This document shows, in pieces, positions 275 to 64,000 of a stretch of 64,000 nucleotides of DNA. A program made the translations under genes and the position numbers. The stretch is from contig CP086569.2 in NCBI GenBank assembly GCA_009914755.4, positions 33,056,001 through 33,120,000 of the forward strand. The letters are read 5' to 3'. The notes under the pieces were generated by a model that made no database searches, had not been told where the DNA came from, and saw only the letters and a program-made list of their open reading frames with translations. The stretch's first letter is position 1. The number at the start of each line of letters is the position of its first letter. Source of the stretch: the human T2T-CHM13v2.0 reference genome, Homo sapiens.

Positions 275-595
<321 letters not shown>

Positions 596-2420: not shown

Positions 2421-4840
<2,420 letters not shown>

Positions 4841-7260: not shown

Positions 7261-9680
<2,420 letters not shown>

Positions 9681-12100: not shown

Positions 12101-16940
<4,840 letters not shown>

Positions 16941-19110: not shown

Positions 19111-26507
<7,397 letters not shown>

Positions 26508-30212: not shown

Positions 30213-34660
<4,448 letters not shown>

Positions 34661-34664
34661 TATG

Positions 34665-40300: not shown

Positions 40301-40941
40301 GGCATCAAACGGAATGGAATGGACAGCCACGGAATGGAATGCACTCGAATGCAATGGAGTCGAAACTAATGGACTGGAATAGAATGGACTCGACTGGTAC
40401 GGACTCCAATGGAATGGAATCGAATGGAAGGGAATCGAACGGAATGGACTCGAAGGCAAAAGACTGCAATGGAAAGGTGTCGAATGGAATGGAAATTAAT
40501 GGAATGGAATGGAATCGAATGAAATGGAGTCAAAAGGAATGGAATCGAATGGCAAGAAATCGAATGTAATGGAATCGCAAGGAATTGATGTGAACGGAAC
40601 GGAATGGAATGGAATCCAAAGGAATGGAATAGAATGGAATGGAATCGAATGGAAAGGACTCGAATGGAAATCACTCGAATAGAATGCAATTTAATAAAAT
40701 AGGATCAAATGTAATGGAATGGAATGGAAAGGAATCGAAACGAAAGGAATGGAGACAGATGGAATGGAATGGAACAGAGAGCAATGGTATAGAATGGAAT
40801 GGAATCATCTGGAATGGAATTGAATGGAATGGAATAACATGAAATGGAATGGAATGGAATGGAATGCCTTTGAATTAAATGGACTGGAATGGAATGCTCT
40901 CGAACAGAGTGGAATGGAAAGTGTTGGAATAGAATGGAATG
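37394..40941 (+). repeat. DYZ1-type unit 2 (3,548 bp)
   Basis: Anchor-to-anchor spacing. Confidence 0.85.
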
Positions 40942-43900
40942 GACTCGTTTGGAATGGTGTAGTATGCAATGCAATCGACTGGCAGGGAATCAAAAGGAAT
41001 GTAATCGAATGGATTGGACTGGAATGCAATGGACTCGAATAGATTGGAAACGGAATGCAAAGGAATGGAATGGAATAGTATGGAATGGAATGGAAAGGAA
41101 TGGAGTGGAATAGACTAGAGTGGAATGGAATGGACTGGAAAGCAATGGACTGGAATGGAACTTTCTTGAATGGACTGGAATCAAACGGAATGGAATACAA
41201 TGCAATCAAATGGCATGGAATAAAATAGAATGAAAGAGAATCAAATGGAATTGAATCGAATGGAATCGAATGGATTGGAAAGGAATAGAATGGAATGGAA
41301 TGGAATTGACTCAAATGGAATGGACTAGAATGGAATGGATTCGAATGGAAGGCAAAGGAATGGAATCTATTGGAATGGACTGTAATGGAATGGAATGGAA
41401 GGGATTGGAATGGACTCGAATGGAATGGACTGCAATAGAAAGGATTCGAATGGAATGAAAAAGAATTGAATGGAATAGAACAGAATGGAATCAAATCGAA
41501 TGAAATGGAATGGAATAGAAAGGAATGGAATGAAATGGAATGGAAAGGATTCGAATAGAATGCAATCGAATGGAATGGAATCGAACGGAATGGAATAAAA
41601 TGGAAGAAAACTGGCAAGAAATGGAATCGAAATGAATGGAGTGTTATGGATCGGACTCAAAAGGAATTGAATGTAATAGAATGGAGTGGAGTGGACTCGA
41701 ATATAATGGACTGGAATGGAATGAAATCACATGGAATGGGAACGAATGGAATGGAATGGAAAGGAATGGAATCGAATGGAAAGGAATCGAATGGAAGGGA
41801 ATGAAATTGAATCAACAGGAATGGAAGGGAGTAGAATAGACGGTAATGGAATGGACTCGAATAGAATGGACACGAATGCTCAAATTGAACGGACTCGAAT
41901 GGAATGGAAACGAAAGGAATGTCATCGAATGGAATTGAATCGGTTGGAATGAAATCGCATAGAATGGAGTGGAATCAAATGGAATTGAATCGAAAGGAAA
42001 GGAAGCGAATGGACTGAAATGAAATGGAATGGAATTGAATGGAAAGTAATGCAATGGAATAGAATGGAACGAAATTTCACGGAATGGAATCAAACTGAAT
42101 GGAATCAAATCAATGGAATATAATCAAATGGAATGGAAAGGAATTGAATGGAGTAGATTGGGTTGGATGGGATTGGAATGAAATGGAATGGAAAGGACTC
42201 GAATTTCATGAAACGGAATGGAATGAATTGGAACGGAATGGACTCGAATGGAATGGAATGACATGGAATGGCAAGAAATGGAATGGCATCAAAGGGAATG
42301 GAATCGAATGCAATGGAATGCTATGGAATGGAATGGAATGCATTGGAATGGAATGTCCTCTAATGGAATGGATTCGAGTGGAATGGAATCTAATATAATG
42401 GAGTCGAATGAAATGGAATTGAAAGGAATGGGATCGAATACAATGGAATATACTGGAATGTAATGTAAAGAACTCGAATGTAATTGAATGGAAAGGAATG
42501 TACATGAATGGAATGTAATCGAATGGAAAGTAATCCAATGGAATAGTATCTAATGTAATAAAATCGACTCAGATAGAGTAGAATGTAATGGAATGGAGTG
42601 TAGTGCAATGGAATGGAATGGAATGGAATGCAATGGAATGGAAAGGAATGGAATGGAATGGAATGGAATGGGATGGAATGGTATGGAATGGATAGTAATG
42701 GACTGGAGTGAAATGGACTGGAAAGGAATGGACTCAAATTGAAAGGTCTCGAAAGGAATGGAGTCAAAAGGAATGGTCTGGAATGGAATGAACACGAATG
42801 TAATGCAATCCAATAGAATGGAGTCGAATGGCATGGAATATAAAGAAATGGGATCGAAGAGAATGGAAACAAATGGAATGGAATTGAATGGAATGGAATT
42901 GAATGGAATGGGAAGGAATGGAGTGAAATTGTATGCAGTAGAAGAGAATAGAATGGAATGCAAGTGAAAGGAAAGGAATGGATTGGAATGGAATGGAATT
43001 CATTGAAATGGAAGGGAATGTAGTGTAATGGACAGGCCTGGAATAAAGTGGAATGCTACGGTCTCGAATGGAATAAAAATGTATGGAATGGAATGCAATG
43101 AAACGGAATCGAATGTCATAGAAAGTAATGGAATGCAAAAAAATGGAATCCAAAATCATTGACTGGAAAGGCTGGGTGTCGAAAGGAATTGACTCCAATG
43201 GAATGGAATCGAATGGAATGGAAGTGAATAGAATCGAACTAAATCGAATGGAATGGAATTGATAGGAACGGAATGGAAAGGAATGCAATGATTTGGCATG
43301 GAATGGAATCGAATGGCATCGAATGGAATGGAATGGAATGCAATGGAATGGAATGTATTAGAATGTAATGAACTTTAATGGAATGTACTCGAATGGATTC
43401 GACTGGAATGGAATGTTCTGGAAGTGAATGGACTCCAATGGAATGGATTCGAAAGGAATGGAATCGTACGGAATGGAATCTAATGGAATGGAATTAAATG
43501 GAAATGAATCAAATTGAATAGCACGGAATAGAATTGAATGGAATCGAATGCAATGGAATCTAATGAAACGGAAAGGAAAGGAATGGAATGGAATGGAATG
43601 GGCTGGAATGGAATGGAATCGAAACAAATAGAATGGAATCGAACTGAAGAGACTGGAATGGAATGCACTGGAATGGAAGGGAGTGTAATGGAAGGTTCTC
43701 GAAAAAAATGGAATCGAATGGAATGGAATTGAATGGAACGGAATAGAGTCGAATGGAATTGAATGGAATGGAATGGACTAGAGTGAAATGGAATCGAACC
43801 ACAAGGAATGGACAGGAATAGAATGGTCTCGAATTGAATGGAATCGTATGGAATGGCATCAAACGGAATGGAATGGACAGCCACGGAATGGAATGCACTC

Positions 43901-44502
43901 GAATGCAATGGAGTCGAAACGTCGAAACTAATGGACTGGAATAGAATGGACTCGACTGGTACGGACTCCAATGGAATGGAATCGAATGGAAGGGAATCGA
44001 ACGGAATGGACTCGAAGGGAAAAGACTGCAATGGAAAGGTCTCGAATGGAATGGAAATTAATGGAATGGAATGGAATCGAATGAAATGGAGTCAAAAGGA
44101 ATGGAATCGAATGGCAAGAAATCGAATGTAATGGAATCGCAAGGAATTGATGTGAACGGAACGGAATGGAATGGAATCCAAAGGAATGGAATAGAATGGA
44201 ATGGAATCGAATGGAAAGGACTCGAATGGAAATCACTCGAATAGAATGCAATTTAATAAAATAGGATCAAATGTAATGGAATGGAATGGAAAGGAATCGA
44301 AACGAAAGGAATGGAGACAGATGGAATGGAATGGAACAGAGAGCAATGGTATAGAATGGAATGGAATCATCTGGAATGGAATTGAATGGAATGGAATAAT
44401 ATGAAATGGAATGGAATGGAATGGAATGCCCTTGAATTAAATGGACTGGAATGGAATGGACTCGAACAGAGTGGAATGGAAAGTGTTGAAATAGAATGGA
44501 AT
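40942..44502 (+). repeat. DYZ1-type unit 3 (3,561 bp)
   Basis: Anchor-to-anchor spacing. Confidence 0.85.
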
Positions 44503-47500
44503 GGACTCGTTTGGAATGGTCTAGTATGCAATGCAATCGACTGGCAGGGAATCAAAAGGAATGTAATCGAATGGATTGGACTGGAATGCAATGGACTCGA
44601 ATAGATTGGAAACGGAAAGCAAAGGAATGGAATGGAATAGTATGGAATGGAATGCAAAGGAATGGAGTGGAATAGACTAGAGTGGAATGGAATGGACTCG
44701 AAAGCAATGGACTGGAATGGAACTTTCTTGAATGGACTGGAATCAAACGGAATGGAATGCAATGCAATCAAATGGCATGGAATAAAATAGAATGAAAGAG
44801 AATCAAATGGAATTGAATCGAATGGAATCGAATGGATTGGAAAAGAATAGAATGGAATGGAATGGAATTGACTCAAATGGAATGGACTAGAATGGAATGG
44901 ATTCGAATGGAAGGCAAAGGAATGGAATCTATTGGAATGGACTGTAATGGAATGGAATGGAAGGGATTGGAATGGACTCGAATGGAATGGACTGCAGTAG
45001 AAAGGATTCGAATGGAATGAAAAAGAATTGAATGGAATAGAACAGAATGGAATCAAATCGAATGAAATGGAATGGAATAGAAAGGAATGGAATGAAATGG
45101 AATGGAAAGGATTCGAATGGAATGCAATCGAATGGAATGAAATCGAATGGAATGGAATCGAACGGAATGGAATAAAATGGAAGAAAACTGGCAAGAAATG
45201 GAATCGAAATGAATGGAGTGTTATGGAACGGACTCAAAAGGAATTGAATGTAATAGAATGGAGTGGAGTGGACTCGAATATAATGGACTGGAATGGAATG
45301 AAATCACATGGAATGGGAACGAATGGAATGGAATGGAAAGGAATGGAATGGAAAGGAATGGAATCGAATGGAAAGGAATCGAATGGAAGGGAATGAAATT
45401 GAATCAACAGGAATGGAAGGAAGTAGAATAGACGGTAATGGAATGGACTCGAATAGAATGGACACGAATGCTCAAATTGAATGGACTCGAATGGAATGGA
45501 AACGAAAGGAATGTCGTCGAATGGAATTGAATCGATTGGAATGAAATCGCATAGAATGGAGTGGAATCAAATGGAATTGAATCGAAAGGAAAGGAAGCGA
45601 ATGGTCTGTAATGAAATGGAATGGAATTGAATGGAAAGTAATGCAAGGGAATAGAATGGAACGAAATTTCACGGAATGGAATCAAACTGAATGGAATCAA
45701 ATCAATGGAATATAATCAAATGGCATGGAAAGGAATTGAATGGAGTAGATTGGATTGGATGGGATTGGAATGAAATGTACTGGAAAGGACTCGAATTTCA
45801 TGAAATGGAATGGAATGAACTGGAACGGAATGGACTCGAATGGAATGGAATGTCATGGAATGGCATCAAATGGAATGGCATCAAATGGAATGGAATCGAA
45901 TGCAATGGAATGCTATGGAATGGAATGGAATGCATTGGAATGGAATGTCCCCTAATGGAATGGATTCGAGTGGAATGGAATCGAATATAATGGAGTCGAA
46001 TGAAATGGAATTGAAAGGAAAGGGATCGAATACAATGGAATATACTGGAATGTAATGTAATGAACTCGAATGTAATTGACTAGAATGGAATGTACATGAA
46101 TGGAATGTAATCGAATGGAAAATAATCTCATGGAATAGAATCTAATGCAATAAAATCGACTCAAATAGAATAGAATGGAATGGAGTGGAGTGCAGTGCAA
46201 TGGAATGGAATGGAATGGAATGCAATGGAATGGAATGGAATGGGATGGAATGGTATGGGATGGATAGAAATGGACTGGAGTGAAATGGACTGGAAAGTAA
46301 TGGACTCAAATTGAAAGAGCTCGAAAGAATGGAGTCAAATGGAATGGTCTGGAATGGAATGAACACGAATGTAATGCAATCCAATAGAATGGAATCGAAT
46401 GGCATGGAATATAAAGAAATGGAATCGAAGAGAATGGAAACGAATGGAATGGAATTGAATGGAATGGAATTGAATGGAATGGGAACGAATGGAGTGAAAT
46501 TGTATGCAGTAGAAGAGAATAGAATGGAATGCAAGCGAAATTAAAGGAATGGATTGGAATGGAATGGAATTCATTGGAATGGAAGGTAATGTATTGCAAT
46601 GGACAGGCCTTTAATAAAGTGGAATGCTACGGTCTCGAATGGAATAAAAATGTATGGAATGGAATTCAATGAAACGGAATCGAATGTCATAGAATGTAAT
46701 GGAATGCAAAAAAATGGAATCCAAAATCATTGACTGGAAAGGCTGGGTGTCGAAAGGAATTGACTCCAATGGAATGAAATCGAATGGAATGGAAGTGAAT
46801 AGAATCGAAGTAAATCGAATGGAATGGAATTGTTAGGAACGGAATGGAAAGGAGTGCAATGATTTGGCATGGAATGGAATCGAATGGCATTGAATGGAGT
46901 GGAATGGAATGCAATGGAATGGAATGTATTAGAATGTAATGAACATTAATGGAATGTACTCGAATGGAATCGACTGGAATGGAATGTTCTGGAAGTGAAT
47001 GGACTCCAATGGAATGGATTCGAAAGGAATGGAATCTAATGGAATGGAATTAAATGGAAACGAATCAAATTGAATAGCACGGAATTGAATTGAATGGAAT
47101 CGAATGCAATGGAATCTAATGAAATGGAAAGGAAAGGAATGGAATGGAATGGAATGGGCTGGAGTTGAATGGAATCGATACGAATGGAATGGAATAGAAC
47201 TGAAGAGACTGGAATGGAATTCACTGGAATGGAAGGGAGTGTAATGGAAGGATCTCGAAAAAAATGGAATCGAATGGAATGGAATTGAATGGAACGGAAT
47301 AGAGTCGAATGGAATTCAATGGAATTGAATGGACTAGAGTGAAATGGAATCGAACCACAAGGAATGGACAGGAATAGAATGGTCTCGAATTGAATGGAAT
47401 CGTATGGAATGACATCAAACGGAATGGAATGGACAGCCACGGAATGGAATGCCCTCGAATGCAATGGAGTCGAAACTAATGGACTGGAATAGAATGGACT

Positions 47501-48050
47501 CGACTGGTACGGACTCCAATGGAATGGAATCGAAAGGAAGGGAATCGAACGGAATGGACTCGAAGGGAAAAGACTGCAATGGAAAGGTCTCGAATGGAAT
47601 GGAAATTAATGGAATGGAATGGAATCGAATGAAATGGAGTCAAAAGGAATGGAATCGAATGGCAAGAAATCGAATGTAATGGAATCGCAAGGAATTGATG
47701 TGAACGGAACGGAATGGAATGGAATCCAAAGGAATGGAATAGAATGGAATGGAATCGAATGGAAAGGACTCGAATGGAAATCACTCGAATAGAATGCAAT
47801 TTAATAAAATAGGATCAAATGGAATGGAATGGAATGGAAAGGAATCGAAACGAAAGGAATGGAGACAGATGGAATGGAATGGAACAGAGAGCAATGGTAT
47901 AGAATGGAATGGAATCATCTGGAATGGAATTGAATGGAATGGAATAACATGAAATGGAATGGAATGGAATGGAATGCCCTTGAATTAAATGGACTGGAAT
48001 GGAATGGACTCGAACAGAGTGTAATGGAAAGTGTTGAAATAGAATGGAAT
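44503..48050 (+). repeat. DYZ1-type unit 4 (3,548 bp)
   Basis: Anchor-to-anchor spacing. Confidence 0.85.
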
Positions 48051-51000
48051 GGACTCCTTTGGAATGGTCTAGTATGCAATGCAATCGACTGGCAGGGAAT
48101 CAAAAGGAATGTAATCGAATGGATTGGACTGGAATGCAATGGACTCGAATAGACTGGAAACGGAATGCAAAGGAATGGAATGGAATAGTATGGAATGGAA
48201 TGGAAAGGAATGGAGTGGAATAGACTAGAGTGGAATGGAATGGACTGGAAAGCAATGGACTGGAATGGAACATTCTTGAATGGACTGGAATCAAACGGAA
48301 TGGAATGCAATGCAATCAAATGGCATGGAATCAAATGGAATGAAAGGGAATCAAATGGAATTGAATCGAATGGAATCGAATGGATTGGAAAGGAATAGAA
48401 TGGAATGGAATGGAATTGACTCAAATGGAATGGACTAGAATGGAATGGATTCGAATGGAAGGCAAAGGAATGGAATCTATTGGAATGGACTGTAATGGAA
48501 TGGAATGGAAGGGATTGGAATGGACTCGAATGGAATGGACTGCAATAGAAAGGATTCGAATGGAATGAAAAAGAATTGAATGGAATAGAACAGAATGGAA
48601 TCAAATCGAATGAAATGGAATGGAATAGAAAGGAATGGAATGAAATGGAATGGAAAGGATTCGAATGGAATGCAATCGAATGGAATGGAATCGAACGGAA
48701 TGGAATAAAATGGAAGAAAACTGGCAAGAAATGGAATCGAAATGAATGGAGTGTTATGGAACGGACTCAAAAGGAATTGAATGTAATAGAATGGAGTGGA
48801 GTGGACTCGAATATAATGGACTGGAATGGAATGAAATCACATGGAATGGGAACGAATGGAATGGAATGGAAAGGAATGGAATCGAATGGAAAGGAATCGA
48901 ATGGAAGGGAATGAAATTGAATCAACAGGAATGGAAGGGAATAGAATAGACGGTAATGGAATGGACTCGAATAGAATGGACACGAATGCTCAAATTGAAT
49001 GGACTCGAATGGAATGGAAACGAAAGGAATGTCATCGAATGGAATTGAATCGATTGGAATGAAATCGCATAGAATGGAGTGGAATCAAATGGAATTGAAT
49101 CGAAAGGAAAGGAAGCGAATGGACTGAAATGAAATGGAATGGAATTGAATGGAAAGTAATGCAATGGAATAGAATGGAACGAAATTTCACGGAATGGAAT
49201 GAAACTGAATGGAATCAAATCAATGGAATCTAATCAAGTGGAAAGGAAAGGAATTGAATGGAGTAGATTGGATTGGATGGGATTGGAATGAAATGTACTG
49301 GAAAGGACTCGAGTTTCATGAAACGGAATGGAATGAATTGGAACGGAATGGACTCGAATGGAATGGAATGTCATGGAATGGCATCAAATGGAATGGCATC
49401 AAATGGAATGGAATCGAATGCAATGGAATGCTATGGAATGGAATGGAATGCATTGGAATGGAATGTCCTCTAATGGAATAGATTCGAGTGGAATGGAATC
49501 GAATATAATGGAGTCGAATGAAATGGAATTGAAAGGAATGGGATCGAATACAATGGAATATACTTGAATGTAATGTAATGAACTCGAATGTAATTGACTG
49601 GAATGGAATGTACATGAATGGAATGTAATCGAATGGAAAGTAATCCAATGGAATAGAATCTAATGCAATAAAATCGACTCAGATAGAGTAGAATGTAATG
49701 GAATTGAGTGCAGTGCAATGGAATGGAATGGAATGGAATGCAATGGAATGGAATGGAATGGAAAGGAATGGAATGGAATGGGATGGAATGGTATGGAATG
49801 GATAGTAATGGACTGGAGTGAAATGGACTGGAAATGAATGGACTCAAATTGAAAGGGCTCGAAAGGAATGGAGTCAAAAGGAATGGTCTGGAATGGAATG
49901 AACACGAATGTAATGCAATCCAATAGAATGGAATCGAATGGCATGGAATATAAAGAAATGGAATCGAAGAGAATGGAAACAAATGGAATGGAATTGAATG
50001 GAATGGAATTGAATGGAATGGGAACGAATGGAGTGAAATTGTATGCAGTAGAAGAGAATAGAATGGAATGCAAGCGAAAGGAAAGTAATGGATTGGAATG
50101 GAATGGAATTCATTGGAATGGAAGGGAATGTAGTGTAATGGACAGGCCTGGAATAAAGTGGAATGCTACGGTCTCAAATGGAATAAAAATGTATGGAATG
50201 GAATGCAATGAAACGGAATCGAATGTCATAGAATGTAATGGAATGCAAAAAAATGGAATCCAAAATCATTGACTGGAAAGGCTGGGTGTCGAAAGGAATT
50301 GACTCCAATGGAATGGAATCGAATGGAATGGAAGTGAATAGAATGGAACTAAATCGAATGGAATGGAATTGATAGGAACGGAATGGAAAGGAATGCAATG
50401 ATTTGGCATGGAATGGAATCGAATGGCATCGAATGGAATGGAATGGAATGCAATGGAATGGAATGTATTAGAATTTAATGAACTTTAATGGAATGTACTC
50501 GAATGGATTCGACTGGAATGGAATGTTCTGGAAGTGAATGGACTCCAATGGAATGGATTCAAAAGGAATGGAGTCGTACGGAATGGAATCTAATGGAATG
50601 GAATTAAATGGAAATGAATCAAATTGAATAGAACGGAATTGATTTGAATGGAATCGAATGCAATGGAATCTAATGAAACGGAAAGGAAAGGAATGGAATG
50701 GAATGGAATGGGCTGGAATGGAAAGGAATCGAAACGAATGGAATGGAATCGAACTGAAGAGACTGGAATGGAATGCACTGGAATGGAAGGGAGTGTAATG
50801 GAAGGTTCTCGAAAAAAATGGAATCGAATGGAATGGAATTGAGTGGAACGGAATAGAGTCGAATGGAATTGAATGGAATGGAATGGACTAGAGTGAAATG
50901 GAATCGAACCACAAGGAATGGACAGGAATAGAATGGTCTCGAATTGAATGGAATCGTATGGAATGGCATCAAACGGAATGGAATGGACAGCCACGGAATG

Positions 51001-51604
51001 GAATGCACTCGAATGCAATGGAGTCGAAACTAATGGACTGGAATAGAATGGACTCGACTGGTACGGACTCCAATGGAATGGAATCGAATGGAAGGGAATC
51101 GAACGGAATGGACTCGAAGGGAAAACACTGCAATGGAAAGGTCTCGAATGGAATGGAAATTAATGGAATGGAACGGAATCGAATGAAATGGAGTCAAAAG
51201 GAATGGAATCGAATGGCAAGAAATCGAATGCAATGGAATCGCAAGGAATTGATGTGAACGGAACGGAATGGAATGGAATCCAAAGGAATGGAATAGAATG
51301 GAATGGAATCGAATGGAAAGGACTCGAATGGAAATCACTCGAACAGAATGCAATTTAATAAAATAGGATCAAATGTAATGGAATGGAATGGAAAGGAATC
51401 GAAACGAAAGGAATGGAGACAGATGGAATGGAATGGAACAGAGAGCAAAGGTATAGAATGGAATGGAATCATCTGGAATGGAATTGAATGGAATGGAATA
51501 ATATGAAATGGAATGGAATGGAATGGAATGCCCTTGAATTAAATGGACTGGAATGGAATGGACTCAAACAGAGTGGAATGGAAAGTGTGGATATAGAATG
51601 GAAT
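48051..51604 (+). repeat. DYZ1-type unit 5 (3,554 bp)
   Basis: Anchor-to-anchor spacing. Confidence 0.85.
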
Positions 51605-54600
51605 GAACTCCTTTGGAATGGTCTAGTAGACAATGCAATCGACAGGCAGGGAATCAAAAGGAATGTAATCGAATGGATTGGACTGGAATGCAATGGACTC
51701 GAATAGATTGGAAACGGAATGCAAAGGAATGGAATGGAATAGTATGGAATGGTATGGAAAGGAATGGAGTGGAATAGACTAGAGTGGAATGGAATGGACT
51801 GGAAAGCAATGGACTGGAATGGAACATTCTTGAATGGACTGGAATCAAACGGAATGGAATGCAATGCAATCAAATGGCATGGAATAAAATAGAATGAAAG
51901 AGAATCAAATGGAATTGAATCGAATGGAATCGAATGGATTGGAAAGGAATAGAATGGAATGGAATGGAATTGACTCAAATGGAATGGACTAGAATGGAAT
52001 GGATTCGAATGGAAGGCAAAGGAATGGAATCTATTGGAATGGACTGTAATGGAATGGAATGGAAGGGATTGGAATGGACTCGAATGGAATGGACTGCAGT
52101 AGAAAGGATTCGAATGGAATGAAAAAGAATTGAATGGAATAGAACAGAATGGAATCAAATCGAATGAAATGGAATGGAATAGAAAGGAATGGAATGAAAT
52201 GGAATGGAAAGGATTCGAATGGAATGCAATCGAATGGAATGAAATCGAATGGAATGGAATCGAACGGAATGGAATAAAATGGAAGAAAACTGGCAAGAAA
52301 TGGAATCGAAATGAATGGAGTGTTATGGAACGGACTCAAAAGGAATTGAATGTAATAGAATGGAGTGGAGTGGACTCGAATATAATGGACTGGAATGGAA
52401 TGAAATCACATGGAATGGGAACGAATGGAATGGAATGGAAAGGAATGGAATGGAAAGGAATGGAATCGAATGGAAAGGAATCGAATGGAAGGGAATGAAA
52501 TTGAATCAACAGGAATGGAAGGAAGTAGAATAGACGGTAATGGAATGGACTCGAATAGAATGGACACGAATGCTCAAATTGAATGGACTCGAATGGAATG
52601 GAAACGAAAGGAATGTCGTCGAATGGAATTGAATCGATTGGAATGAAATCGCATAGAATGGAGTGGAATCAAATGGAATTGAATCGAAAGGAAAGGAAGC
52701 GAATGGTCTGTAATGAAATGGAATGGAATTGAATGGAAAGTAATGCAAGGGAATAGAATGGAACGAAATTTCACGGAATGGAATCAAACTGAATGGAATC
52801 AAATCAATGGAATATAATCAAATGGCATGGAAAGGAATTGAATGGAGTAGATTGGATTGGATGGGATTGGAATGAAATGTACTGGAAAGGACTCGAATTT
52901 CATGAAATGGAATGGAATGAACTGGAACGGAATGGACTCGAATGGAATGGAATGTCATGGAATGGCATCAAATGGAATGGCATCAAATGGAATGGAATCG
53001 AATGCAATGGAATGCTATGGAATGGAATGGAATGCATTGGAATGGAATGTCCCCTAATGGAATGGATTCGAGTGGAATGGAATCGAATATAATGGAGTCG
53101 AATGAAATGGAATTGAAAGGAAAGGGATCGAATACAATGGAATATACTGGAATGTAATGTAATGAACTCGAATGTAATTGACTAGAATGGAATGTACATG
53201 AATGGAATGTAATCGAATGGAAAATAATCTCATGGAATAGAATCTAATGCAATAAAATCGACTCAAATAGAATAGAATGGAATGGAGTGGAGTGCAGTGC
53301 AATGGAATGGAATGGAATGGAATGCAATGGAATGGAATGGAATGGGATGGAATGGTATGGGATGGATAGAAATGGACTGGAGTGAAATGGACTGGAAAGT
53401 AATGGACTCAAATTGAAAGAGCTCGAAAGAATGGAGTCAAATGGAATGGTCTGGAATGGAATGAACACGAATGTAATGCAATCCAATAGAATGGAATCGA
53501 ATGGCATGGAATATAAAGAAATGGAATCGAAGAGAATGGAAACGAATGGAATGGAATTGAATGGAATGGAATTGAATGGAATGGGAACGAATGGAGTGAA
53601 ATTGTATGCAGTAGAAGAGAATAGAATGGAATGCAAGCGAAATTAAAGGAATGGATTGGAATGGAATGGAATTCATTGGAATGGAAGGTAATGTATTGCA
53701 ATGGACAGGCCTTTAATAAAGTGGAATGCTACGGTCTCGAATGGAATAAAAATGTATGGAATGGAATTCAATGAAACGGAATCGAATGTCATAGAATGTA
53801 ATGGAATGCAAAAAAATGGAATCCAAAATCATTGACTGGAAAGGCTGGGTGTCGAAAGGAATTGACTCCAATGGAATGAAATCGAATGGAATGGAAGTGA
53901 ATAGAATCGAAGTAAATCGAATGGAATGGAATTGTTAGGAACGGAATGGAAAGGAGTGCAATGATTTGGCATGGAATGGAATCGAATGGCATTGAATGGA
54001 GTGGAATGGAATGCAATGGAATGGAATGTATTAGAATGTAATGAACATTAATGGAATGTACTCGAATGGAATCGACTGGAATGGAATGTTCTGGAAGTGA
54101 ATGGACTCCAATGGAATGGATTCGAAAGGAATGGAATCTAATGGAATGGAATTAAATGGAAACGAATCAAATTGAATAGCACGGAATTGAATTGAATGGA
54201 ATCGAATGCAATGGAATCTAATGAAATGGAAAGGAAAGGAATGGAATGGAATGGAATGGGCTGGAGTTGAATGGAATCGATACGAATGGAATGGAATAGA
54301 ACTGAAGAGACTGGAATGGAATTCACTGGAATGGAAGGGAGTGTAATGGAAGGATCTCGAAAAAAATGGAATCGAATGGAATGGAATTGAATGGAACGGA
54401 ATAGAGTCGAATGGAATTCAATGGAATTGAATGGACTAGAGTGAAATGGAATCGAACCACAAGGAATGGACAGGAATAGAATGGTCTCGAATTGAATGGA
54501 ATCGTATGGAATGACATCAAACGGAATGGAATGGACAGCCACGGAATGGAATGCACTCGAATGCAATGGAGTCGAAACTAATGGACTGGAATAGAATGGA

Positions 54601-55152
54601 CTCGACTGGTACGGACTCCAATGGAATGGAATCGAAAGGAAGGGAATCGAACGGAATGGACTCGAAGGGAAAAGACTGCAATGGAAAGGTCTCGAATGGA
54701 ATGGAAATTAATGGAATGGAATGGAATCGAATGAAATGGAGTCAAAAGGAATGGAATCGAATGGCAAGAAATCGAATGTAATGGAATCGCAAGGAATTGA
54801 TGTGAACGGAACGGAATGGAATGGAATCCAAAGGAATGGAATAGAATGGAATGGAATCGAATGGAAAGGACTCGAATGGAAATCACTCGAATAGAATGCA
54901 ATTTAATAAAATAGGATCAAATGGAATGGAATGGAATGGAAAGGAATCGAAACGAAAGGAATGGAGACAGATGGAATGGAATGGAACAGAGAGCAATGGT
55001 ATAGAATGGAATGGAATCATCTGGAATGGAATTGAATGGAATGGAATAACATGAAATGGAATGGAATGGAATGGAATGCCCTTGAATTAAATGGACTGGA
55101 ATGGAATGGACTCGAACAGAGTGTAATGGAAAGTGTTGAAATAGAATGGAAT
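51605..55152 (+). repeat. DYZ1-type unit 6 (3,548 bp); near-identical to unit 4
   Basis: Anchor spacing; six-frame ORF translations identical to those 7,102 bp upstream. Confidence 0.85.
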
Positions 55153-58100
55153 GGACTCCTTTGGAATGGTCTAGTATGCAATGCAATCGACTGGCAGGGA
55201 ATCAAAAGGAATGTAATCGAATGGATTGGACTGGAATGCAATGGACTCGAATAGACTGGAAACGGAATGCAAAGGAATGGAATGGAATAGTATGGAATGG
55301 AATGGAAAGGAATGGAGTGGAATAGACTAGAGTGGAATGGAATGGACTGGAAAGCAATGGACTGGAATGGAACATTCTTGAATGGACTGGAATCAAACGG
55401 AATGGAATGCAATGCAATCAAATGGCATGGAATCAAATGGAATGAAAGGGAATCAAATGGAATTGAATCGAATGGAATCGAATGGATTGGAAAGGAATAG
55501 AATGGAATGGAATGGAATTGACTCAAATGGAATGGACTAGAATGGAATGGATTCGAATGGAAGGCAAAGGAATGGAATCTATTGGAATGGACTGTAATGG
55601 AATGGAATGGAAGGGATTGGAATGGACTCGAATGGAATGGACTGCAATAGAAAGGATTCGAATGGAATGAAAAAGAATTGAATGGAATAGAACAGAATGG
55701 AATCAAATCGAATGAAATGGAATGGAATAGAAAGGAATGGAATGAAATGGAATGGAAAGGATTCGAATGGAATGCAATCGAATGGAATGGAATCGAACGG
55801 AATGGAATAAAATGGAAGAAAACTGGCAAGAAATGGAATCGAAATGAATGGAGTGTTATGGAACGGACTCAAAAGGAATTGAATGTAATAGAATGGAGTG
55901 GAGTGGACTCGAATATAATGGACTGGAATGGAATGAAATCACATGGAATGGGAACGAATGGAATGGAATGGAAAGGAATGGAATCGAATGGAAAGGAATC
56001 GAATGGAAGGGAATGAAATTGAATCAACAGGAATGGAAGGGAATAGAATAGACGGTAATGGAATGGACTCGAATAGAATGGACACGAATGCTCAAATTGA
56101 ATGGACTCGAATGGAATGGAAACGAAAGGAATGTCATCGAATGGAATTGAATCGATTGGAATGAAATCGCATAGAATGGAGTGGAATCAAATGGAATTGA
56201 ATCGAAAGGAAAGGAAGCGAATGGACTGAAATGAAATGGAATGGAATTGAATGGAAAGTAATGCAATGGAATAGAATGGAACGAAATTTCACGGAATGGA
56301 ATGAAACTGAATGGAATCAAATCAATGGAATCTAATCAAGTGGAAAGGAAAGGAATTGAATGGAGTAGATTGGATTGGATGGGATTGGAATGAAATGTAC
56401 TGGAAAGGACTCGAGTTTCATGAAACGGAATGGAATGAATTGGAACGGAATGGACTCGAATGGAATGGAATGTCATGGAATGGCATCAAATGGAATGGCA
56501 TCAAATGGAATGGAATCGAATGCAATGGAATGCTATGGAATGGAATGGAATGCATTGGAATGGAATGTCCTCTAATGGAATAGATTCGAGTGGAATGGAA
56601 TCGAATATAATGGAGTCGAATGAAATGGAATTGAAAGGAATGGGATCGAATACAATGGAATATACTTGAATGTAATGTAATGAACTCGAATGTAATTGAC
56701 TGGAATGGAATGTACATGAATGGAATGTAATCGAATGGAAAGTAATCCAATGGAATAGAATCTAATGCAATAAAATCGACTCAGATAGAGTAGAATGTAA
56801 TGGAATTGAGTGCAGTGCAATGGAATGGAATGGAATGGAATGCAATGGAATGGAATGGAATGGAAAGGAATGGAATGGAATGGGATGGAATGGTATGGAA
56901 TGGATAGTAATGGACTGGAGTGAAATGGACTGGAAATGAATGGACTCAAATTGAAAGGGCTCGAAAGGAATGGAGTCAAAAGGAATGGTCTGGAATGGAA
57001 TGAACACGAATGTAATGCAATCCAATAGAATGGAATCGAATGGCATGGAATATAAAGAAATGGAATCGAAGAGAATGGAAACAAATGGAATGGAATTGAA
57101 TGGAATGGAATTGAATGGAATGGGAACGAATGGAGTGAAATTGTATGCAGTAGAAGAGAATAGAATGGAATGCAAGCGAAAGGAAAGTAATGGATTGGAA
57201 TGGAATGGAATTCATTGGAATGGAAGGGAATGTAGTGTAATGGACAGGCCTGGAATAAAGTGGAATGCTACGGTCTCAAATGGAATAAAAATGTATGGAA
57301 TGGAATGCAATGAAACGGAATCGAATGTCATAGAATGTAATGGAATGCAAAAAAATGGAATCCAAAATCATTGACTGGAAAGGCTGGGTGTCGAAAGGAA
57401 TTGACTCCAATGGAATGGAATCGAATGGAATGGAAGTGAATAGAATGGAACTAAATCGAATGGAATGGAATTGATAGGAACGGAATGGAAAGGAATGCAA
57501 TGATTTGGCATGGAATGGAATCGAATGGCATCGAATGGAATGGAATGGAATGCAATGGAATGGAATGTATTAGAATTTAATGAACTTTAATGGAATGTAC
57601 TCGAATGGATTCGACTGGAATGGAATGTTCTGGAAGTGAATGGACTCCAATGGAATGGATTCAAAAGGAATGGAGTCGTACGGAATGGAATCTAATGGAA
57701 TGGAATTAAATGGAAATGAATCAAATTGAATAGAACGGAATTGATTTGAATGGAATCGAATGCAATGGAATCTAATGAAACGGAAAGGAAAGGAATGGAA
57801 TGGAATGGAATGGGCTGGAATGGAAAGGAATCGAAACGAATGGAATGGAATCGAACTGAAGAGACTGGAATGGAATGCACTGGAATGGAAGGGAGTGTAA
57901 TGGAAGGTTCTCGAAAAAAATGGAATCGAATGGAATGGAATTGAGTGGAACGGAATAGAGTCGAATGGAATTGAATGGAATGGAATGGACTAGAGTGAAA
58001 TGGAATCGAACCACAAGGAATGGACAGGAATAGAATGGTCTCGAATTGAATGGAATCGTATGGAATGGCATCAAACGGAATGGAATGGACAGCCACGGAA

Positions 58101-58706
58101 TGGAATGCACTCGAATGCAATGGAGTCGAAACTAATGGACTGGAATAGAATGGACTCGACTGGTACGGACTCCAATGGAATGGAATCGAATGGAAGGGAA
58201 TCGAACGGAATGGACTCGAAGGGAAAACACTGCAATGGAAAGGTCTCGAATGGAATGGAAATTAATGGAATGGAACGGAATCGAATGAAATGGAGTCAAA
58301 AGGAATGGAATCGAATGGCAAGAAATCGAATGCAATGGAATCGCAAGGAATTGATGTGAACGGAACGGAATGGAATGGAATCCAAAGGAATGGAATAGAA
58401 TGGAATGGAATCGAATGGAAAGGACTCGAATGGAAATCACTCGAACAGAATGCAATTTAATAAAATAGGATCAAATGTAATGGAATGGAATGGAAAGGAA
58501 TCGAAACGAAAGGTATGGAGACAGATGGAATGGAATGGAACAGAGAGCAAAGGTATAGAATGGAATGGAATCATCTGGAATGGAATTGAATGGAATGGAA
58601 TAATATGAAATGGAATGGAATGGAATGGAATGCCCTTGAATTAAATGGACTGGAATGGAATGGACTCAAACAGAGTGGAATGGAAAGTGTGGATATAGAA
58701 TGGAAT
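55153..58706 (+). repeat. DYZ1-type unit 7 (3,554 bp); near-identical to unit 5
   Basis: Anchor spacing; ORF translations identical to those 7,102 bp upstream. Confidence 0.85.
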
Positions 58707-61700
58707 GAACTCCTTTGGAATGGTCTAGTAGACAATGCAATCGACAGGCAGGGAATCAAAAGGAATGTAATCGAATGGATTGGACTGGAATGCAATGGAC
58801 TCGAATAGATTGGAAACGGAATGCAAAGGAATGGAATGGAATAGTATGGAATGGTATGGAAAGGAATGGAGTGGAATAGACTAGAGTGGAATGGAATGGA
58901 CTGGAAAGCAATGGACTGGAATGGAACATTCTTGAATGGACTGGAATCAAACGGAATGGAATGCAATGCAATCAAATGGCATGGAATAAAATAGAATGAA
59001 AGAGAATCAAATGGAATTGAATCGAATGGAATCGAATGGATTGGAAAGGAATAGAATGGAATGGAATGGAATTGACTCAAATGGAATGGACTAGAATGGA
59101 ATGGATTCGAATGGAAGGCAAAGGAATGGAATCTATTGGAATGGACTGTAATGGAATGGAATGGAAGGGATTGGAATGGACTCGAATGGAATGGACTGCA
59201 ATAGAAAGGATTCGAATGGAATGAAAAAGAATTGAATGGAATAGAACAGAATGGAATCAAATCGAATGAAATGGAATGGAATAGAAAGGAATGGAATGAA
59301 ATGGAATGGAAAGGATTCGAATGGAATGCAATCGAATGGAATGGAATCGAACGGAATGGAATAAAATGGAAGAAAACTGGCAAGAAATGGAATCGAAATG
59401 AATGGAGTGTTATGGAACGGACTCAAAAGGAATTGAATGTAATAGAATGGAGTGGAGTGGACTCGAATATAATGGACTGGAATGGAATGAAATCACATGG
59501 AATGGGAACGAATGGAATGGAATGGAAAGGAATGGAATCGAATGCAAAGGAATCGAATGGAAGGGAATGCAATTGAATCAACAGGAATGGAAGGGAATAG
59601 AATAGACGGTAATGGAATGGACTCGAATAGAATGGACACGAATGCTCAAATTGAATGGACTCGAATGGAATGGAAACGAAAGGAATGTCATCGAATGGAA
59701 TTGAATCGATTGGAATGAAATCGCATAGAATGGAGTGGAATCAAATGGAATTGAATCGAAAGGAAAGGAAGCCAATGGACTGAAATGAAATGGAATGGAA
59801 TGGAATGGAAACTAATGCAATGGAATAGAATGGAACGAAATTTCACGGAATGGAATGAAACTGAATGGAATCAAATCAATGGAATCTAATCAAGTGGAAT
59901 GGAAAGGAATTGAATGGAGTAGATTGGATTGGATGGGATTGGAATGAAATGTACTGGAAAAGACTCGAATTTCATGAAACGGAATGGAATGAATTGGAAC
60001 GGAATGGACTCGAATGGAATGGAATGTCATGGAATGGCATCAAATGGAATGGCATCAAATGGAATGGAATCGAATGCAATGGAATGCTATGGAATGGAAT
60101 GGAATGCATTGGAATGGAATGTCCTCTAATGGAATGGATTCGAGTGGAATGGAATCGAATATAATGGAGTCGATTGAAATGGAATTGAAAGGAATGGGAT
60201 CGAATACAATGGAATACACTGGAATGTAATGTAATGAACATGAATGTAATTGACTGGAATGTAATGTACATGAATGGAATGTAATCGAATGGAAAGTAAT
60301 CCAATGGAATAGAATCTAATGCAATAAAATCGACACAGATAGAGTAGAATGTAATGGAATGGAGTGCAGTGCAATGGAATGGAATGGAATGGAATGCAAT
60401 GGAATGGAATGGAATGGAATGGAATGGAATGGAATGGAATGGAATGGTGTGGAATGGATAGTAATGGACTGGAGTGAAATGGACTGGAAATGAATGGACT
60501 CAAATTGAAAGGGCTCGAAAGGAATGGAGTCAAATGGAATGGTCTGGAATGGAATGAACACGAATGTAATGCAATCCAATAGAATGGAATCGAATGGCAT
60601 GGAATATAAAGAAATGGAATCGAAGAGAATGGAAACAAATGGAATGGAATTGAATGGAATGGAATTGAATGGAATGGGAACGAATGGAGTGAAATTGTAT
60701 GCAGTAGAAGAGAATAGAATGGAATGCAAGCGAAAGGAAAGGAATGGATTGGAATGGAATGGAATTCATTGGAATGGAAGGGAATGTAGTGTAATGGACA
60801 GGCCTGGAATAAAGTGGAATGCTACGGTCTCGAATGGAATAAAAATGTATGGAATGGAATGCAATGAAACGGAATCGAATGTCATAGAATGTAATGGAAT
60901 GCAAAAAAATGGACTCCAAAATCATTGACTGGAAAGGCTGGATGTCGAAAGGAATTGACTCCAATGGAATGGAATCGAATGGAATGGAAGTGAATAGAAT
61001 CGAACTAAATCGAATGGAATGGAATTGATAGGAACGGAATGGAAAGGAATGCAATGATTTGGCATGGAATGGAAACGAATGGTATCTAATGGAATGGAAT
61101 GTAATGTAATGGAATGGAATGTATTAGAATGTAATGAACTTTAATGGAATGTACTCGAATGGATTCGACTGGAATGGAATGTTCTGGAAGTGAATGGACT
61201 CCAATGGAATGGATTCAAAAGGAATGGAATCGTACGGAATGGAATCTAATGGAATGGAATTAAATGGAAATGAATCAAATTGAATAGCACGGAATTGAAT
61301 TGAATGGAATGGAATGCAATGGAATCTAATGAAACGGAAAGGAAAGGAATGGAATGGAATGGAATGGGCTGGAATGGAAAGGAATCGAAACGAATGGAAT
61401 GGAATCGAACTGAAGAGACTGGAATGGAATGCACTGGAATGGAAGGGAGTGTAATGGAAGGTTCTCGAAAAAAATGGAATCGAATGGAATGGAATTGAAT
61501 GGAACGGAATAGAGTCGAATGGAATTGAATGGAATGGAATGGACTAGAGTGAAATGGAATCGAACCACAAGGAATGGACAGGAATAGAATGGTCTCGAAT
61601 TGAATGGAATCGTATGGAATGGCATCAAACGGAATGGAATGGACAGCCACGGAATGGAATGCACTCGAATGCAATGGAGTCGAAACTAATGGACTGGAAT

Positions 61701-62265
61701 AGAATGGACTCGACTGGTACGGACTCCAATGGAATGGAATCGAATGGAAGGGAATCGAACGGAATGGACTCGAAGGGAAAAAACTGCAATGGAAAGGTCT
61801 CGAATGGAATGGAAATTAATGGAATGGAATGGAATCGAATGAAATGGAGTCAAAAGGAATGGAATCGAATGGCAAGAAATCGAATGTAATGGAATCGCAA
61901 GGAATTGATGTGAACGGAACGGAATGGAATGGAATCCAAAGGAATGGAATAGAATGGAATGGAATCGAATGGAAAGGACTCGAATGGAAATCACTCGAAT
62001 AGAATGCAATTTAATAAAATAGGATCAAATGGAATGGAATGGAATGGAAAGGAATCGAAACGAAAGGAATGGAGACAGATGGAATGGAATGGAACAGAGA
62101 GCAATGGTATAGAATGGAATGGAATCATCTGGAATGGAATTGAATGGAATGGAATAATATGAAATGGAATGGAATGGAATGGAATGGAATACCCTTGAAT
62201 TAAATGGACTGGAATGGAATGGACTCGAACAGAGTGGAATGGAAAGTGTTGAGATAGAATGGAAT
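58707..62265 (+). repeat. DYZ1-type unit 8 (3,559 bp)
   Basis: Anchor spacing; contains an uninterrupted (GGAAT)~12 run at ~60396-60455. Confidence 0.85.
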
Positions 62266-64000
62266 GGACTCCTTCGGAATGGTGTAGTATGCAATGCAAT
62301 CGACTGGCAGGGAATCAAAAGGAATGTAATGGAATGGATTGGACTGGAATGCAATGGACTCGAATAGATTGGAAACGGAATGCAAAGGAATGGAATGGAA
62401 TAGTATGGAATGGAATGGAAAGGAATGGAGTGGAATAGACTAGAGTGGAATATAATGGACTGGAAAGCAATGGACTGGAATGGAACTTTCTTGAATGGAC
62501 TGGAATCAAACGGAATGGAATGCAATGCAATCAAATGGCATAGAATAAGATAGAATGAAAGAGAATCAAATGGAATTGAATGGAATGGAATCGAATGGAT
62601 TGGAAAGGAATAGAATGGAATGGAATGGAATTGACTCAAATGGAATGGACTAGAATGGAATGGATTCGAATGGAAGGCAAAGGAATGGAATCTATTGGAA
62701 TGGACTGTAATGGAATGCAATGGAAGGGATTGGAATGGACTCGAATGGAATGGACTGCAATAGAAAGGATACGAATGGAATGAAAAAGAATTGAATGGAA
62801 TAGAACAGAATGGAAACAAATCGAATGAAATGGAATGGAATAGAAAGGAATGGAATGAAATGGAATGGAAAGGATTCGAATGGAATGCAAACGAATGGAA
62901 TGGAATCGAACGGAATGGAATAAAATGGAAGAAAACTGGCAAGAAATGGAATCGAAATGAATGGAGTGTTATGGAACGGACTCAAAAGGAATTGAATGTA
63001 ATAGAATGGAGTGGAGTGGACTCGAATATAATGGACTTGAATGGAATGAAATCACATGGAATGGGAACGAATGGAATGGAATGGAAAGGAATGGAATCGA
63101 ATGGAAAGGAATCGAATGGAAGGGAATGAAATTGAACCAACAGGAATGGAAGGGAATAGAATAGACCGTAATGGAATGGACTCGAATAGAATGGACACGA
63201 ATGCTCAAATTGAATGGGCTCGAATGGAATGGAAAAGAAAGGAATGTCATCGAATGGAATTGAATCGATTGGAATGAAATCGCATAGAATGGAGTGGAAT
63301 CAAATGGAATTGAATCGAAAGGAAAGGAAGCGAATGGACTGAAATGAAATGGAATGGAATTGAATGGAAAGTAATGCAATGGAATAGAATGGAACGAAAT
63401 TTCACGGAATGGAATCAAACTGAATGGAATCAAATCAATGGAATCTGATCAAATGGAATGGAAAGGAATTGAATGGAGTAGATTGGATTGGATGGGATTG
63501 GAATGAAATGTACTGGAAAGGACTCGAATTTCATGAAACGGAATGGAATGAATTGGAACGGAATGGACTCGAATGGAATGGAATGTCATGGAATGGCATC
63601 AAATGGAATGGCATCAAATGGAATGGAATCGAATGCAATGGAATGCTATGGAATGGAATGGAATGCATTGGAATGGAATGTCCTCTAATGGAATGGATTC
63701 GAGTGGAATGGAATCGAATATAATGGAGTCGAATGAAATGGAATTGAAAAGAATGGGATCGAATACAATGGAATATACTGGAATGTAATGTAATGAACTC
63801 GAATGTAATTGACTGGAATGGAATGTATATGAATGGAATGTAATCGAATGGAAAGTAATCCAATGGAATAGAATCTAATGCAATAAAATCGACTCAGATA
63901 GAGTAGAATGTAATGGAATGGAGTGCAGTGCAATGGAATGGAATGGAATGGAATGCAATGGAATGGAATGGAATGGGATGGATTGGTATGGAATGGATAG
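62266..64000 (+). repeat. DYZ1-type unit 9 (partial, cut by the window end)
   Basis: Anchor at 62266. Confidence 0.8.

What the first reader, a model, noticed from the sequence alone, without database searches (positions are those of the whole stretch)
44850..59197. Two-unit (7,102-bp) block present twice in tandem at near-100% identity
From ~44850 to ~52095, every six-frame ORF translation recurs exactly 7,102 bp downstream. Only 2-3 amino-acid-level differences are visible across ~7.2 kb, whereas adjacent single units differ at dozens of sites and by 15-bp indels. This indicates a very recent unequal-crossover duplication, or gene conversion, of a dimer of DYZ1-type units. It could alternatively be an assembly artefact if the source is not a telomere-to-telomere assembly.
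Basis: seen in the sequence. Interest (0 to 1): 0.6.

Follow-up and report, generated by a model that had tools for sequence, protein, structure and literature searches.

The report
Recent two-unit duplication in Y-chromosome satellite
A 7.1-kb piece made of two neighbouring units of the human Y-chromosome satellite DYZ1 sits twice in a row with only two base differences; this is a real but ordinary product of out-of-register exchange in tandem repeats, a process already documented for this region.

Summary
Window 44845-52098 equals 51947-59200 at a gapless lag of 7,102 bp, with 2 mismatches in 7,254 bp (99.97%). All other pairs of ~3.55-kb units differ by 60-99 substitutions and 1-6 indels (97.2-98.3%). 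The sequence is human Yq12 heterochromatin. A DYZ2/HSat1B array of 2,420-bp units (1-~34,650) abuts a DYZ1/HSat3 array (~34,660-64,000). This rests on published DYZ1 primers, one HaeIII site per unit, and GC and CpG values that match the literature. The identical stretch is one period plus a 152-bp tract present three times. That is the signature of a tandem duplication made by homologous exchange two units out of register, most likely between sister chromatids. A gene-conversion tract would have no reason to end there. Each copy carries one derived singleton, which gives an age of roughly 365 generations (44-1,318) at the published Yq12 mutation rate. There is no wider 7.1-kb periodicity, because the flanking units do not alternate. 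An assembly artefact cannot be excluded without reads. Such events are known: T2T-Y reports iterative tandem duplications by unequal exchange, and a pedigree study finds about one de novo gain or loss of one or two whole DYZ2 units per Y transmission. Verdict: real, ordinary, low interest.

The parts
44845..51946 (.). Copy A of the duplicated 7,102-bp block: units U3 (44845-48392, 3,548 bp) and U4 (48393-51946, 3,554 bp)
   Evidence: Lag-7102 identity and the unit identity matrix.
51947..59048 (.). Copy B of the block: units U5 (51947-55494) and U6 (55495-59048). U5 = U3 and U6 = U4, each with 1 mismatch and 0 indels.
   Evidence: pair (3,5) has 3547 matches and 1 mismatch; pair (4,6) has 3553 matches and 1 mismatch.
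59049..59200 (.). Third copy of the 152-bp identity tract (the same sequence as 44845-44996 and 51947-52098). This is the inferred interval within which the out-of-register exchange took place.
   Evidence: Bounding mismatches lie at 44844 and 52099. It is the third-longest of 99 perfect-identity tracts between U3 and U7, whose median is 22 bp.
47453..47453 (.). Difference 1: C in copy A versus A at 54555 in copy B. C is a derived singleton.
   Evidence: All other window units carry A. The derived 17-mer and 25-mer are unique in the window and absent from 39 external DYZ1 loci, whereas the ancestral 17-mer and 25-mer occur 29 times there.
58514..58514 (.). Difference 2: T in copy B versus A at 51412 in copy A. 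T is a derived singleton.
   Evidence: The ancestral k-mers are present in every other unit that covers the site and occur 21-24 times in external loci; the derived k-mers are absent.
41283..44844 (.). Left flanking unit U2. It is at background divergence to U4 (98.06%) and U3 (97.3%).
   Evidence: At lag 7102 there are 19 mismatches in 43921-44844.
59049..62607 (.). Right flanking unit U7. It is at background divergence to U5 (97.2%) and U6 (98.3%), so it does not continue a dimer alternation.
34660..64000 (+). DYZ1 (HSat3-type, GGAAT-rich on the + strand) array of about 8.3 units. The first unit (34673-37734) is truncated and rearranged.
   Evidence: There is one GGCC site per unit, giving fragments of 3,539-3,571 bp, with GC 38.6% and one CpG per 35 bp. 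Published primers hit once per unit.
1..34650 (.). Adjacent DYZ2 (HSat1B-type) array of 2,420-bp AT-rich units, with GC 23.8% and one CpG per 152 bp. This is the context of the finding.

Best explanation
This is a recent tandem duplication of two adjacent DYZ1 units in the human Yq12 heterochromatin. The inferred ancestral array read ...U2-U3-U4-U7-U8... Two copies of the array paired two units (7,102 bp) out of register. These were most likely sister chromatids, because this part of the Y has no homologue. A homologous exchange then occurred inside a 152-bp stretch that was identical between the start of U3 and the start of U7. A replication-restart or template-switch event using the same homology would give the same product. 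That product is ...U2-U3-U4-U3'-U4'-U7..., with no novel junction sequence. Afterwards each copy acquired one point substitution. The block has no coding or RNA function of its own; it is one step of the expansion and contraction by which this satellite evolves. Shown directly: the two copies, the exact lag, the absence of indels, the 152-bp triple tract and the derived state of both differences. Inferred: the exchange mechanism, the sister-chromatid partner and the age.
For: (1) There are 2 mismatches and 0 indels in 7,254 bp at lag 7,102, against 60-99 substitutions and 1-6 indels per unit pair elsewhere. (2) The lag equals exactly two whole units (3,548 + 3,554), the copies are head to tail, and nothing lies between them. 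(3) The identity tract is the period plus 152 bp. The 152-bp tract is bounded on the left by a U2/U4 difference (44844) and on the right by a U3/U7 difference (52099), as expected if the exchange lay between those two markers. It is the third-longest of 99 identity tracts between U3 and U7, median 22 bp. (4) The two differences are derived singletons, one in each copy. They are absent from all other units and from 39 independent DYZ1 loci, as expected for mutations after the duplication. (5) The sequence is DYZ1 next to DYZ2. Seven of eight primers from PMC3925983 hit once per unit. HaeIII fragments are 3,539-3,571 bp, GC is 38.6% and 23.8%, and CpG density is 1 per 35 and 1 per 152 bp, against 38% and 24%, 1 per 35 and 1 per 150 bp in Hallast et al.. 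[quoted passage not shown] A four-generation pedigree found five de novo SVs of 2,416-4,839 bp, each of one or two whole DYZ2 units, about one per Y transmission.
Against: No reads are available, so the second copy could be an assembly false duplication. Exchange between sister chromatids cannot be told from replication-based duplication or intrachromatid events by sequence alone. An exchange falling in a tract of 152 bp or more has about 20% prior probability given the tract lengths, so that detail is consistent but not discriminating. Hallast et al. report that homogenisation is concentrated in array centres, whereas this event lies only about 10 kb from an array edge.
Confidence: 0.8

Rival explanations
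1. Long-tract gene conversion. Four units were already present, and a 7.25-kb tract copied from U3-U4 overwrote the two following units without changing copy number.
For: Interlocus gene conversion is active in Yq12. In the pedigree study, 29% of de novo SNVs there have identical matches at non-orthologous sites, and 17% of events in a later study were classed as conversion. Sequence identity alone is compatible with conversion.
Against: The tract would have to be 7,254 bp, so that donor and acceptor abut and overlap by just 152 bp. For an arbitrary tract length, landing within about 150 bp above the lag has a probability of roughly 1-2% (my estimate). The tract would also have had to erase all 5-6 indels. 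Conversion events inferred in Yq12 involve single or few clustered SNVs, not 7-kb tracts.
Confidence: 0.07
2. Assembly artefact. A single U3-U4 dimer was falsely duplicated by the assembler, and the two 'differences' are consensus errors or somatic variants.
For: Satellite arrays are the most error-prone parts of assemblies. Population-scale work still flags and excludes intervals in Yq12. Only two single-base differences distinguish the copies, and both are singletons seen nowhere else, as errors would also be.
Against: There are no Ns and no break at the junction. The copies sit in a coherent array with a clean homology-bounded junction. Events of this kind and size are validated biologically at about one per Y transmission, so the prior for a real event is high. 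A second near-identical pair (DYZ2, 1-2245 = 2421-4665) occurs in the same window, which fits a genuinely dynamic region.
Confidence: 0.09
3. An established 7.1-kb dimeric higher-order repeat of DYZ1, of which the window shows two periods.
For: K-mer lag counts peak at 7,102, with further peaks at 7,110 and 14,212. One external short-read contig is 7,186 bp long, about two units.
Against: Flanking units do not alternate. U7 is the unit least like U3 and U5 (97.2%). U1-U3 is 97.55% and U2-U4 is 98.06%, all at background. The 7,110 and 14,212 peaks are ordinary unit-to-unit matches at two and four units. The 7,186-bp contig is two near-identical monomers, 99.95% at lag 3,559. The U3-type marker TTAAAGGCC occurs nowhere in the metagenome collection and in none of the six genome-contig loci found.
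Confidence: 0.03

Closest known systems
Tandem duplications by unequal exchange in human Yq12 (DYZ1/DYZ2), as described for T2T-Y (Rhie et al. 2023, bioRxiv 10.1101/2022.12.01.518724) and 43 Y assemblies (Hallast et al. 2023, 10.1101/2022.12.01.518658)
   Same: It involves the same satellites and the same head-to-tail duplication of whole units. It shows near-identity of recent copies against a background of about 98%, and the inferred mechanism is the same (unequal or sister-chromatid exchange).
   Different: The published descriptions emphasise large events (up to 5 Mb, spanning several blocks) and homogenisation in array centres. This event is the smallest scale but one (two units) and lies about 10 kb from a DYZ2/DYZ1 boundary.
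De novo whole-unit structural variants in Yq12 seen in a four-generation pedigree (Porubsky et al. 2025, PMC12240836)
   Same: These are gains or losses of exactly one or two whole repeat units (2,416-4,839 bp), about one per Y transmission, in the same region.
   Different: The observed de novo events affected DYZ2 units, whereas this one affects DYZ1 units. This event is not de novo: it carries two later substitutions, so it is probably tens to about 1,300 generations old.
Smith (1976) model of tandem-repeat evolution by unequal crossover, and the emergence of alpha-satellite higher-order repeats
   Same: An out-of-register homologous exchange duplicates a multi-unit block, which is the first step by which a higher-order period can arise.
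   Different: Only two copies exist here and there is no propagated higher-order periodicity. The monomer is 3.55 kb rather than 171 bp.

Membership tests
Human DYZ1 (HSat3A6) satellite | Tandem unit of about 3.5-3.6 kb | tested here: met
   Units are 3,548-3,562 bp. The literature gives about 3.5 kbp, or a 3,569-bp modal HaeIII fragment, and about 3.6 kb.
Human DYZ1 (HSat3A6) satellite | Built from diverged copies of the pentamer GGAAT/CATTC (TTCCA) | tested here: met
   The five rotations of GGAAT are the five commonest 5-mers, about 1,700-1,780 each in 26 kb. Self-identity peaks at lags 5, 10 and 15.
Human DYZ1 (HSat3A6) satellite | One HaeIII (GGCC) site per unit, giving the classical ~3.56-kb fragment | tested here: met
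   There are seven GGCC sites in the DYZ1 part, with spacings of 3,553, 3,571, 3,539, 3,563, 3,539 and 3,554 bp.
Human DYZ1 (HSat3A6) satellite | Matches published DYZ1-specific primers | tested here: met
   Seven of eight primers from PMC3925983 Table 5 match once per unit with 2 or fewer mismatches; primer A is found in only 5 units, and primers C and F have a few extra weak matches. A primer pair recalled from memory also matches once per unit in convergent orientation, 154 bp apart. I could not find that pair in the paper library.
Human DYZ1 (HSat3A6) satellite | GC about 38% and one CpG per about 35 bp; alternates with DYZ2 arrays (2.4 kb, GC about 24%, one CpG per about 150 bp) | tested here: met
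   Measured values are 38.6% and 1 per 35.3 bp. The adjacent 2,420-bp repeat gives 23.8% and 1 per 152 bp, matching Hallast et al..
Human DYZ1 (HSat3A6) satellite | Location on Yq12 of a human male | not testable with these tools
   The window has no coordinates. Independent copies recovered from contaminated bacterial and metagenome assemblies are 98.5-99% identical, which fits human origin.
Tandem duplication by out-of-register homologous exchange (unequal sister-chromatid exchange / NAHR) | Two head-to-tail copies with nothing between them, at a lag equal to a whole number of repeat units | tested here: met
   The lag of 7,102 equals 3,548 + 3,554, and the copies abut at 51946/51947.
Tandem duplication by out-of-register homologous exchange (unequal sister-chromatid exchange / NAHR) | The identity tract equals one period plus the homology tract at the exchange point, with no novel junction sequence | tested here: met
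   7,254 = 7,102 + 152. The 152-bp tract is present three times and is among the longest identity tracts between the paired units.
Tandem duplication by out-of-register homologous exchange (unequal sister-chromatid exchange / NAHR) | Copy-number gain relative to the ancestral or related haplotype; support from spanning reads | not testable with these tools
   No reads and no orthologous Y assemblies are available here.
Higher-order repeat (multi-unit period propagated along the array) | The same multi-unit period continues into neighbouring units (three or more periods, alternating unit types) | tested here: not met
   U1, U2, U7 and U8 are at background identity to the units two positions away (97.2-98.3%).
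Interlocus gene conversion | A patch of identity whose length is unrelated to the donor-acceptor distance; no change of unit number | tested here: inconclusive
   The tract length coincides with the lag plus 152 bp, which argues against conversion. Unit number in the ancestor cannot be determined here.
Assembly false duplication | Read depth about half of the flanks and no molecules spanning both copies | not testable with these tools
   No read data are available.

The most novel reading that the evidence does not exclude
The block is the first step of a nascent 7.1-kb dimeric higher-order repeat. It is founded on an unusually divergent unit variant: U3/U5 has 98 private alignment columns, is about 97% identical to all other DYZ1 copies seen, and its TTAAAGGCC marker is absent from every external DYZ1 copy recovered. 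It arose at an array edge rather than in the centre, and it could serve as a lineage-specific structural marker on the Y phylogeny.
Probability: 0.1. Interest if true: 0.25.

Novelty: already known. Interest (0 to 1): 0.1.

Why it matters
It matters little beyond bookkeeping. It is a clean, base-resolved small example of how the Yq12 satellites expand: an exchange two units out of register within a 152-bp identity tract, datable from two later substitutions. If read-validated, it could serve as a structural marker for a Y lineage and as a calibration point for exchange-tract requirements in satellite DNA. It also illustrates that six-frame ORFs in this region are artefacts of the pentamer repeat.

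Tried and rejected
- **Gapless autocorrelation.** Run over the whole DYZ1 part, it showed only the 5- and 15-bp sub-periods, because indels break the register. I replaced it with k-mer lag counts and gapped unit alignments.
- **The repeat finder.** Even with a 30-nt seed it was swamped by pentamer-level matches at 60% identity and gave nothing usable.
- **BLAST of one unit against the window.** It returned many out-of-register alignments at about 69% identity. Only the in-register hits were used.
- **Primer provenance.** A literature search for the recalled primer TCCACTTTATTCCAGGCCTGTCC found nothing, so that primer pair is marked as recalled. Primers from PMC3925983 were used instead.
- **External 7.1-kb periodicity.** The long metagenome contigs (L010, L011, L019, L027; parent contigs 52-55 kb) are noisy long-read assemblies with 79-267 gap openings per alignment. 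They cannot resolve 99.97% from 98% identity. The 7,186-bp contig L029 is two near-identical monomers.
- **U3-type marker.** The scan found 0 hits in metagenome contigs, and none of the 6 genome-contig hits carries it.
- **Rfam at gathering threshold.** There were no matches in the window.
- **Pfam on the two long minus-strand ORFs.** Only sub-threshold low-complexity matches appeared: Extensin_1 at 27 bits against a 105 cut-off, and Pentapeptide_4 at 25 against 38. A coding interpretation is rejected.
Full report

Yes. Scanning the lag-7,102 diagonal shows a slightly longer tract. It is bounded by mismatches at 44844 and 52099. So 44845-52098 equals 51947-59200: 7,254 bp, 2 mismatches (47453 C/A and 51412 A/T) and no indels.

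The exact stretches of 3,958 and 2,608 bp on this diagonal are the two longest exact repeats in the whole 64-kb window.

I cut the GGAAT-rich part into units in one phase:

| Unit | Start | Note |
|---|---|---|
| U0 | 34673 | truncated |
| U1 | 37735 | |
| U2 | 41283 | |
| U3 | 44845 | |
| U4 | 48393 | |
| U5 | 51947 | |
| U6 | 55495 | |
| U7 | 59049 | |
| U8 | 62608 | cut by the window end |

I then aligned all pairs with gaps. U3/U5 and U4/U6 are each 99.97% identical, with 1 mismatch and 0 indels. Every other pair is 97.2-98.3% identical at aligned columns, with 60-99 substitutions and 1-6 indels.

With about 150 differences expected at background divergence, two or fewer has a probability of about 8e-62.

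**2. What is the sequence?**

The window has two parts.

- Positions 1 to about 34,650 are an AT-rich repeat (GC 13-27% in 2-kb windows) with a 2,420-bp period.
- From about 34,660 onward there is a GGAAT-rich repeat of 3,548-3,562 bp.

The second part has all the testable marks of human DYZ1 (HSat3A6).

- The five rotations of GGAAT dominate the 5-mer spectrum.
- There is one HaeIII site per unit, giving fragments of 3,539-3,571 bp. The classical fragment is 3.56 kb, and the modal fragment in Hallast et al. is 3,569 bp.
- GC is 38.6%, with one CpG per 35 bp. The neighbouring repeat has GC 23.8% and one CpG per 152 bp. Hallast et al. give 38% and 24%, and 1 per 35 and 1 per 150 bp, for DYZ1 and DYZ2.
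- Seven of the eight DYZ1 primers in Table 5 of PMC3925983 match about once per unit with two or fewer mismatches.
- A primer pair I recalled from memory also matches once per unit, 154 bp apart. I could not confirm its source in the paper library.
- Independent DYZ1 copies were recovered as human contamination in bacterial genome assemblies and metagenomes. They are 98.5-99% identical to U1, U2, U4 and U7.

The window is therefore a DYZ2-to-DYZ1 array boundary in human Yq12 heterochromatin, and the finding lies about 10 kb inside the DYZ1 array.

Nothing in it looks like a gene. Rfam finds nothing at gathering threshold. The long minus-strand ORFs translate to IPFHS-type pentapeptide repeats, which is what (GGAAT)n encodes, and they give only sub-threshold low-complexity Pfam matches.

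**3. How did it arise?**

The lag is exactly two whole units (3,548 + 3,554 = 7,102 bp). The copies abut head to tail.

The identical stretch is one period plus 152 bp. As a result, the 152-bp sequence 44845-44996 is present three times; the other two copies are at 51947-52098 and 59049-59200. Its left boundary is a difference between the ends of U2 and U4. Its right boundary is a difference between U3/U5 and U7.

This is what is expected if the ancestral array read U2-U3-U4-U7. Two copies of it paired two units out of register, and an exchange took place somewhere inside a stretch that was identical between the start of U3 and the start of U7.

That stretch is the third-longest of 99 perfect-identity tracts between U3 and U7, whose median is 22 bp. 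This fits a homology-dependent exchange. However, tracts of this size or longer cover about 20% of the unit, so the detail is not decisive.

Because this part of the Y has no homologue, the partner is most likely the sister chromatid. Replication-based template switching within the same homology would leave the same product and cannot be separated by sequence.

Gene conversion is the main biological rival, and I rate it much lower. A conversion tract has no reason to be 7,254 bp, that is, to end within about 150 bp of the point where donor and acceptor meet. I estimate that coincidence at 1-2%. The tract would also have had to erase five or six indels. Conversion events inferred in Yq12 involve single or few clustered SNVs.

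A standing 7.1-kb higher-order repeat is rejected within the window.

- U7 is the unit least like U3/U5 (97.2%).
- U1-U3 and U2-U4 are at background identity.
- The k-mer peaks at 7,110 and 14,212 bp are ordinary matches two and four units apart.

**4. How old is it?**

Both differences are derived singletons, one in each copy: 47453C in U3 and 58514T in U6. The ancestral base is found in every other unit that covers the site, and in 21-29 occurrences among the 39 external loci. The derived 17-mers and 25-mers occur nowhere else. This is the pattern of one mutation per copy since the duplication. Consensus errors would look the same.

With 2 differences in 7,102 bp and the Yq12-specific rate of 3.86e-7 per bp per generation (PMC12240836), the age is about 365 generations. 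The Poisson 95% interval is 44-1,318 generations.

With an approximate euchromatic Y rate of 3e-8, taken from my own knowledge, the age would be about 4,700 generations. Either way it is far younger than the 2-2.8% background divergence would suggest.

**5. Comparison with what is known**

[quoted passage not shown] - Hallast et al. describe DYZ1 and DYZ2 arrays whose central units are homogenised by expansion and contraction, while edge units diverge.
- Porubsky et al. observed five de novo structural variants of 2,416-4,839 bp, each made of one or two whole DYZ2 units, about one per Y transmission.

The present block is a DYZ1 example of the same class of event. It differs only in its small scale and its position near an array edge.

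The window itself shows the published edge gradient. DYZ2 units fall from about 99% mutual identity to 96% and 90% toward the boundary, and the first DYZ1 unit is truncated and rearranged.

A second very recent event is visible at the left edge of the window. Positions 1-2245 are identical to 2421-4665, one DYZ2 unit apart, and the match is cut by the window start.

**6. What remains open**

Without reads I cannot exclude a false duplication by the assembler. I give that about 9%. The biological prior for real events of this size is high, and the junction is clean and bounded by homology.

The long external contigs are noisy long-read assemblies. The one 7.2-kb short-read contig is two near-identical monomers.

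One mildly unusual feature is that U3/U5 is a divergent variant. It has 98 private alignment columns, against 23-37 for the other units, and it is about 97% identical to all external copies. Its marker TTAAAGGCC was found in no external DYZ1 copy. The duplication has therefore doubled a rare unit type. This is the basis for the low-probability 'nascent higher-order repeat' reading.

**7. Verdict**

- The phenomenon is already known for this region.
- Interest is low.

Noticed in passing
window 1-4665: Positions 1-2245 are exactly identical to 2421-4665 (lag 2,420, one DYZ2 unit). The match is cut off by the window start and is followed by ordinary ~1% divergence. This is probably a second very recent one-unit duplication or conversion in the DYZ2 array.
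   Followed up: partly
window 15029-34650: DYZ2 units become more divergent and structurally irregular toward the DYZ2/DYZ1 boundary. The unit at 15029-17200 has a 248-bp deletion. The unit at 27016-30719 is 3,704 bp, with about 1.3 kb of extra AT-rich sequence (GC 13% at 28-30 kb). The unit at 30720-33108 is only ~90% identical to the others. This matches the published 'diverged array edges' pattern.
   Followed up: partly
window 34673-37734: The first DYZ1 unit after the boundary is truncated. It starts at about position 420 of the unit phase used here, and global alignments to the other units show internal gaps totalling ~750-790 bp.
   Followed up: partly
L001-L006 (genome contigs) and L007-L039 (metagenome contigs): Human DYZ1 sequence is present in bacterial genome assemblies: Actinomadura cremea JCM 3308, Streptomyces kurssanovii JCM 4388, Streptosporangium violaceochromogenes JCM 3281, Streptomyces sp. 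NPDC050549, Senimuribacter sp. DSM 106208 and a Polyangiaceae MAG. It is also present in 33 stretches of metagenome contigs. Several contigs are about 3.6 kb, which looks like one collapsed unit. This looks like contamination with male human DNA.
   Followed up: partly
window 34660-64000: Within DYZ1, the 15-bp sub-period gives higher self-identity (68%) than the 5-bp period (64%). Most indels between units are 15 bp, which suggests a 15-mer (three-pentamer) sub-structure.
   Followed up: no
window 46601-46623 and 53703-53725: The U3/U5 variant unit carries CC>AA in the site matched by a commonly used (recalled) Y-specific DYZ1 PCR primer, right next to the HaeIII site. U3/U5 has 98 private alignment columns, against 23-37 for the other units.
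   Followed up: partly
window 44367-52296, minus strand: ORFs of 170-275 aa encode IPFHS-like pentapeptide repeats, the translation of the pentamer satellite. They give only sub-threshold Pfam hits (Extensin_1, Pentapeptide_4), so they are not genes.
   Followed up: yes
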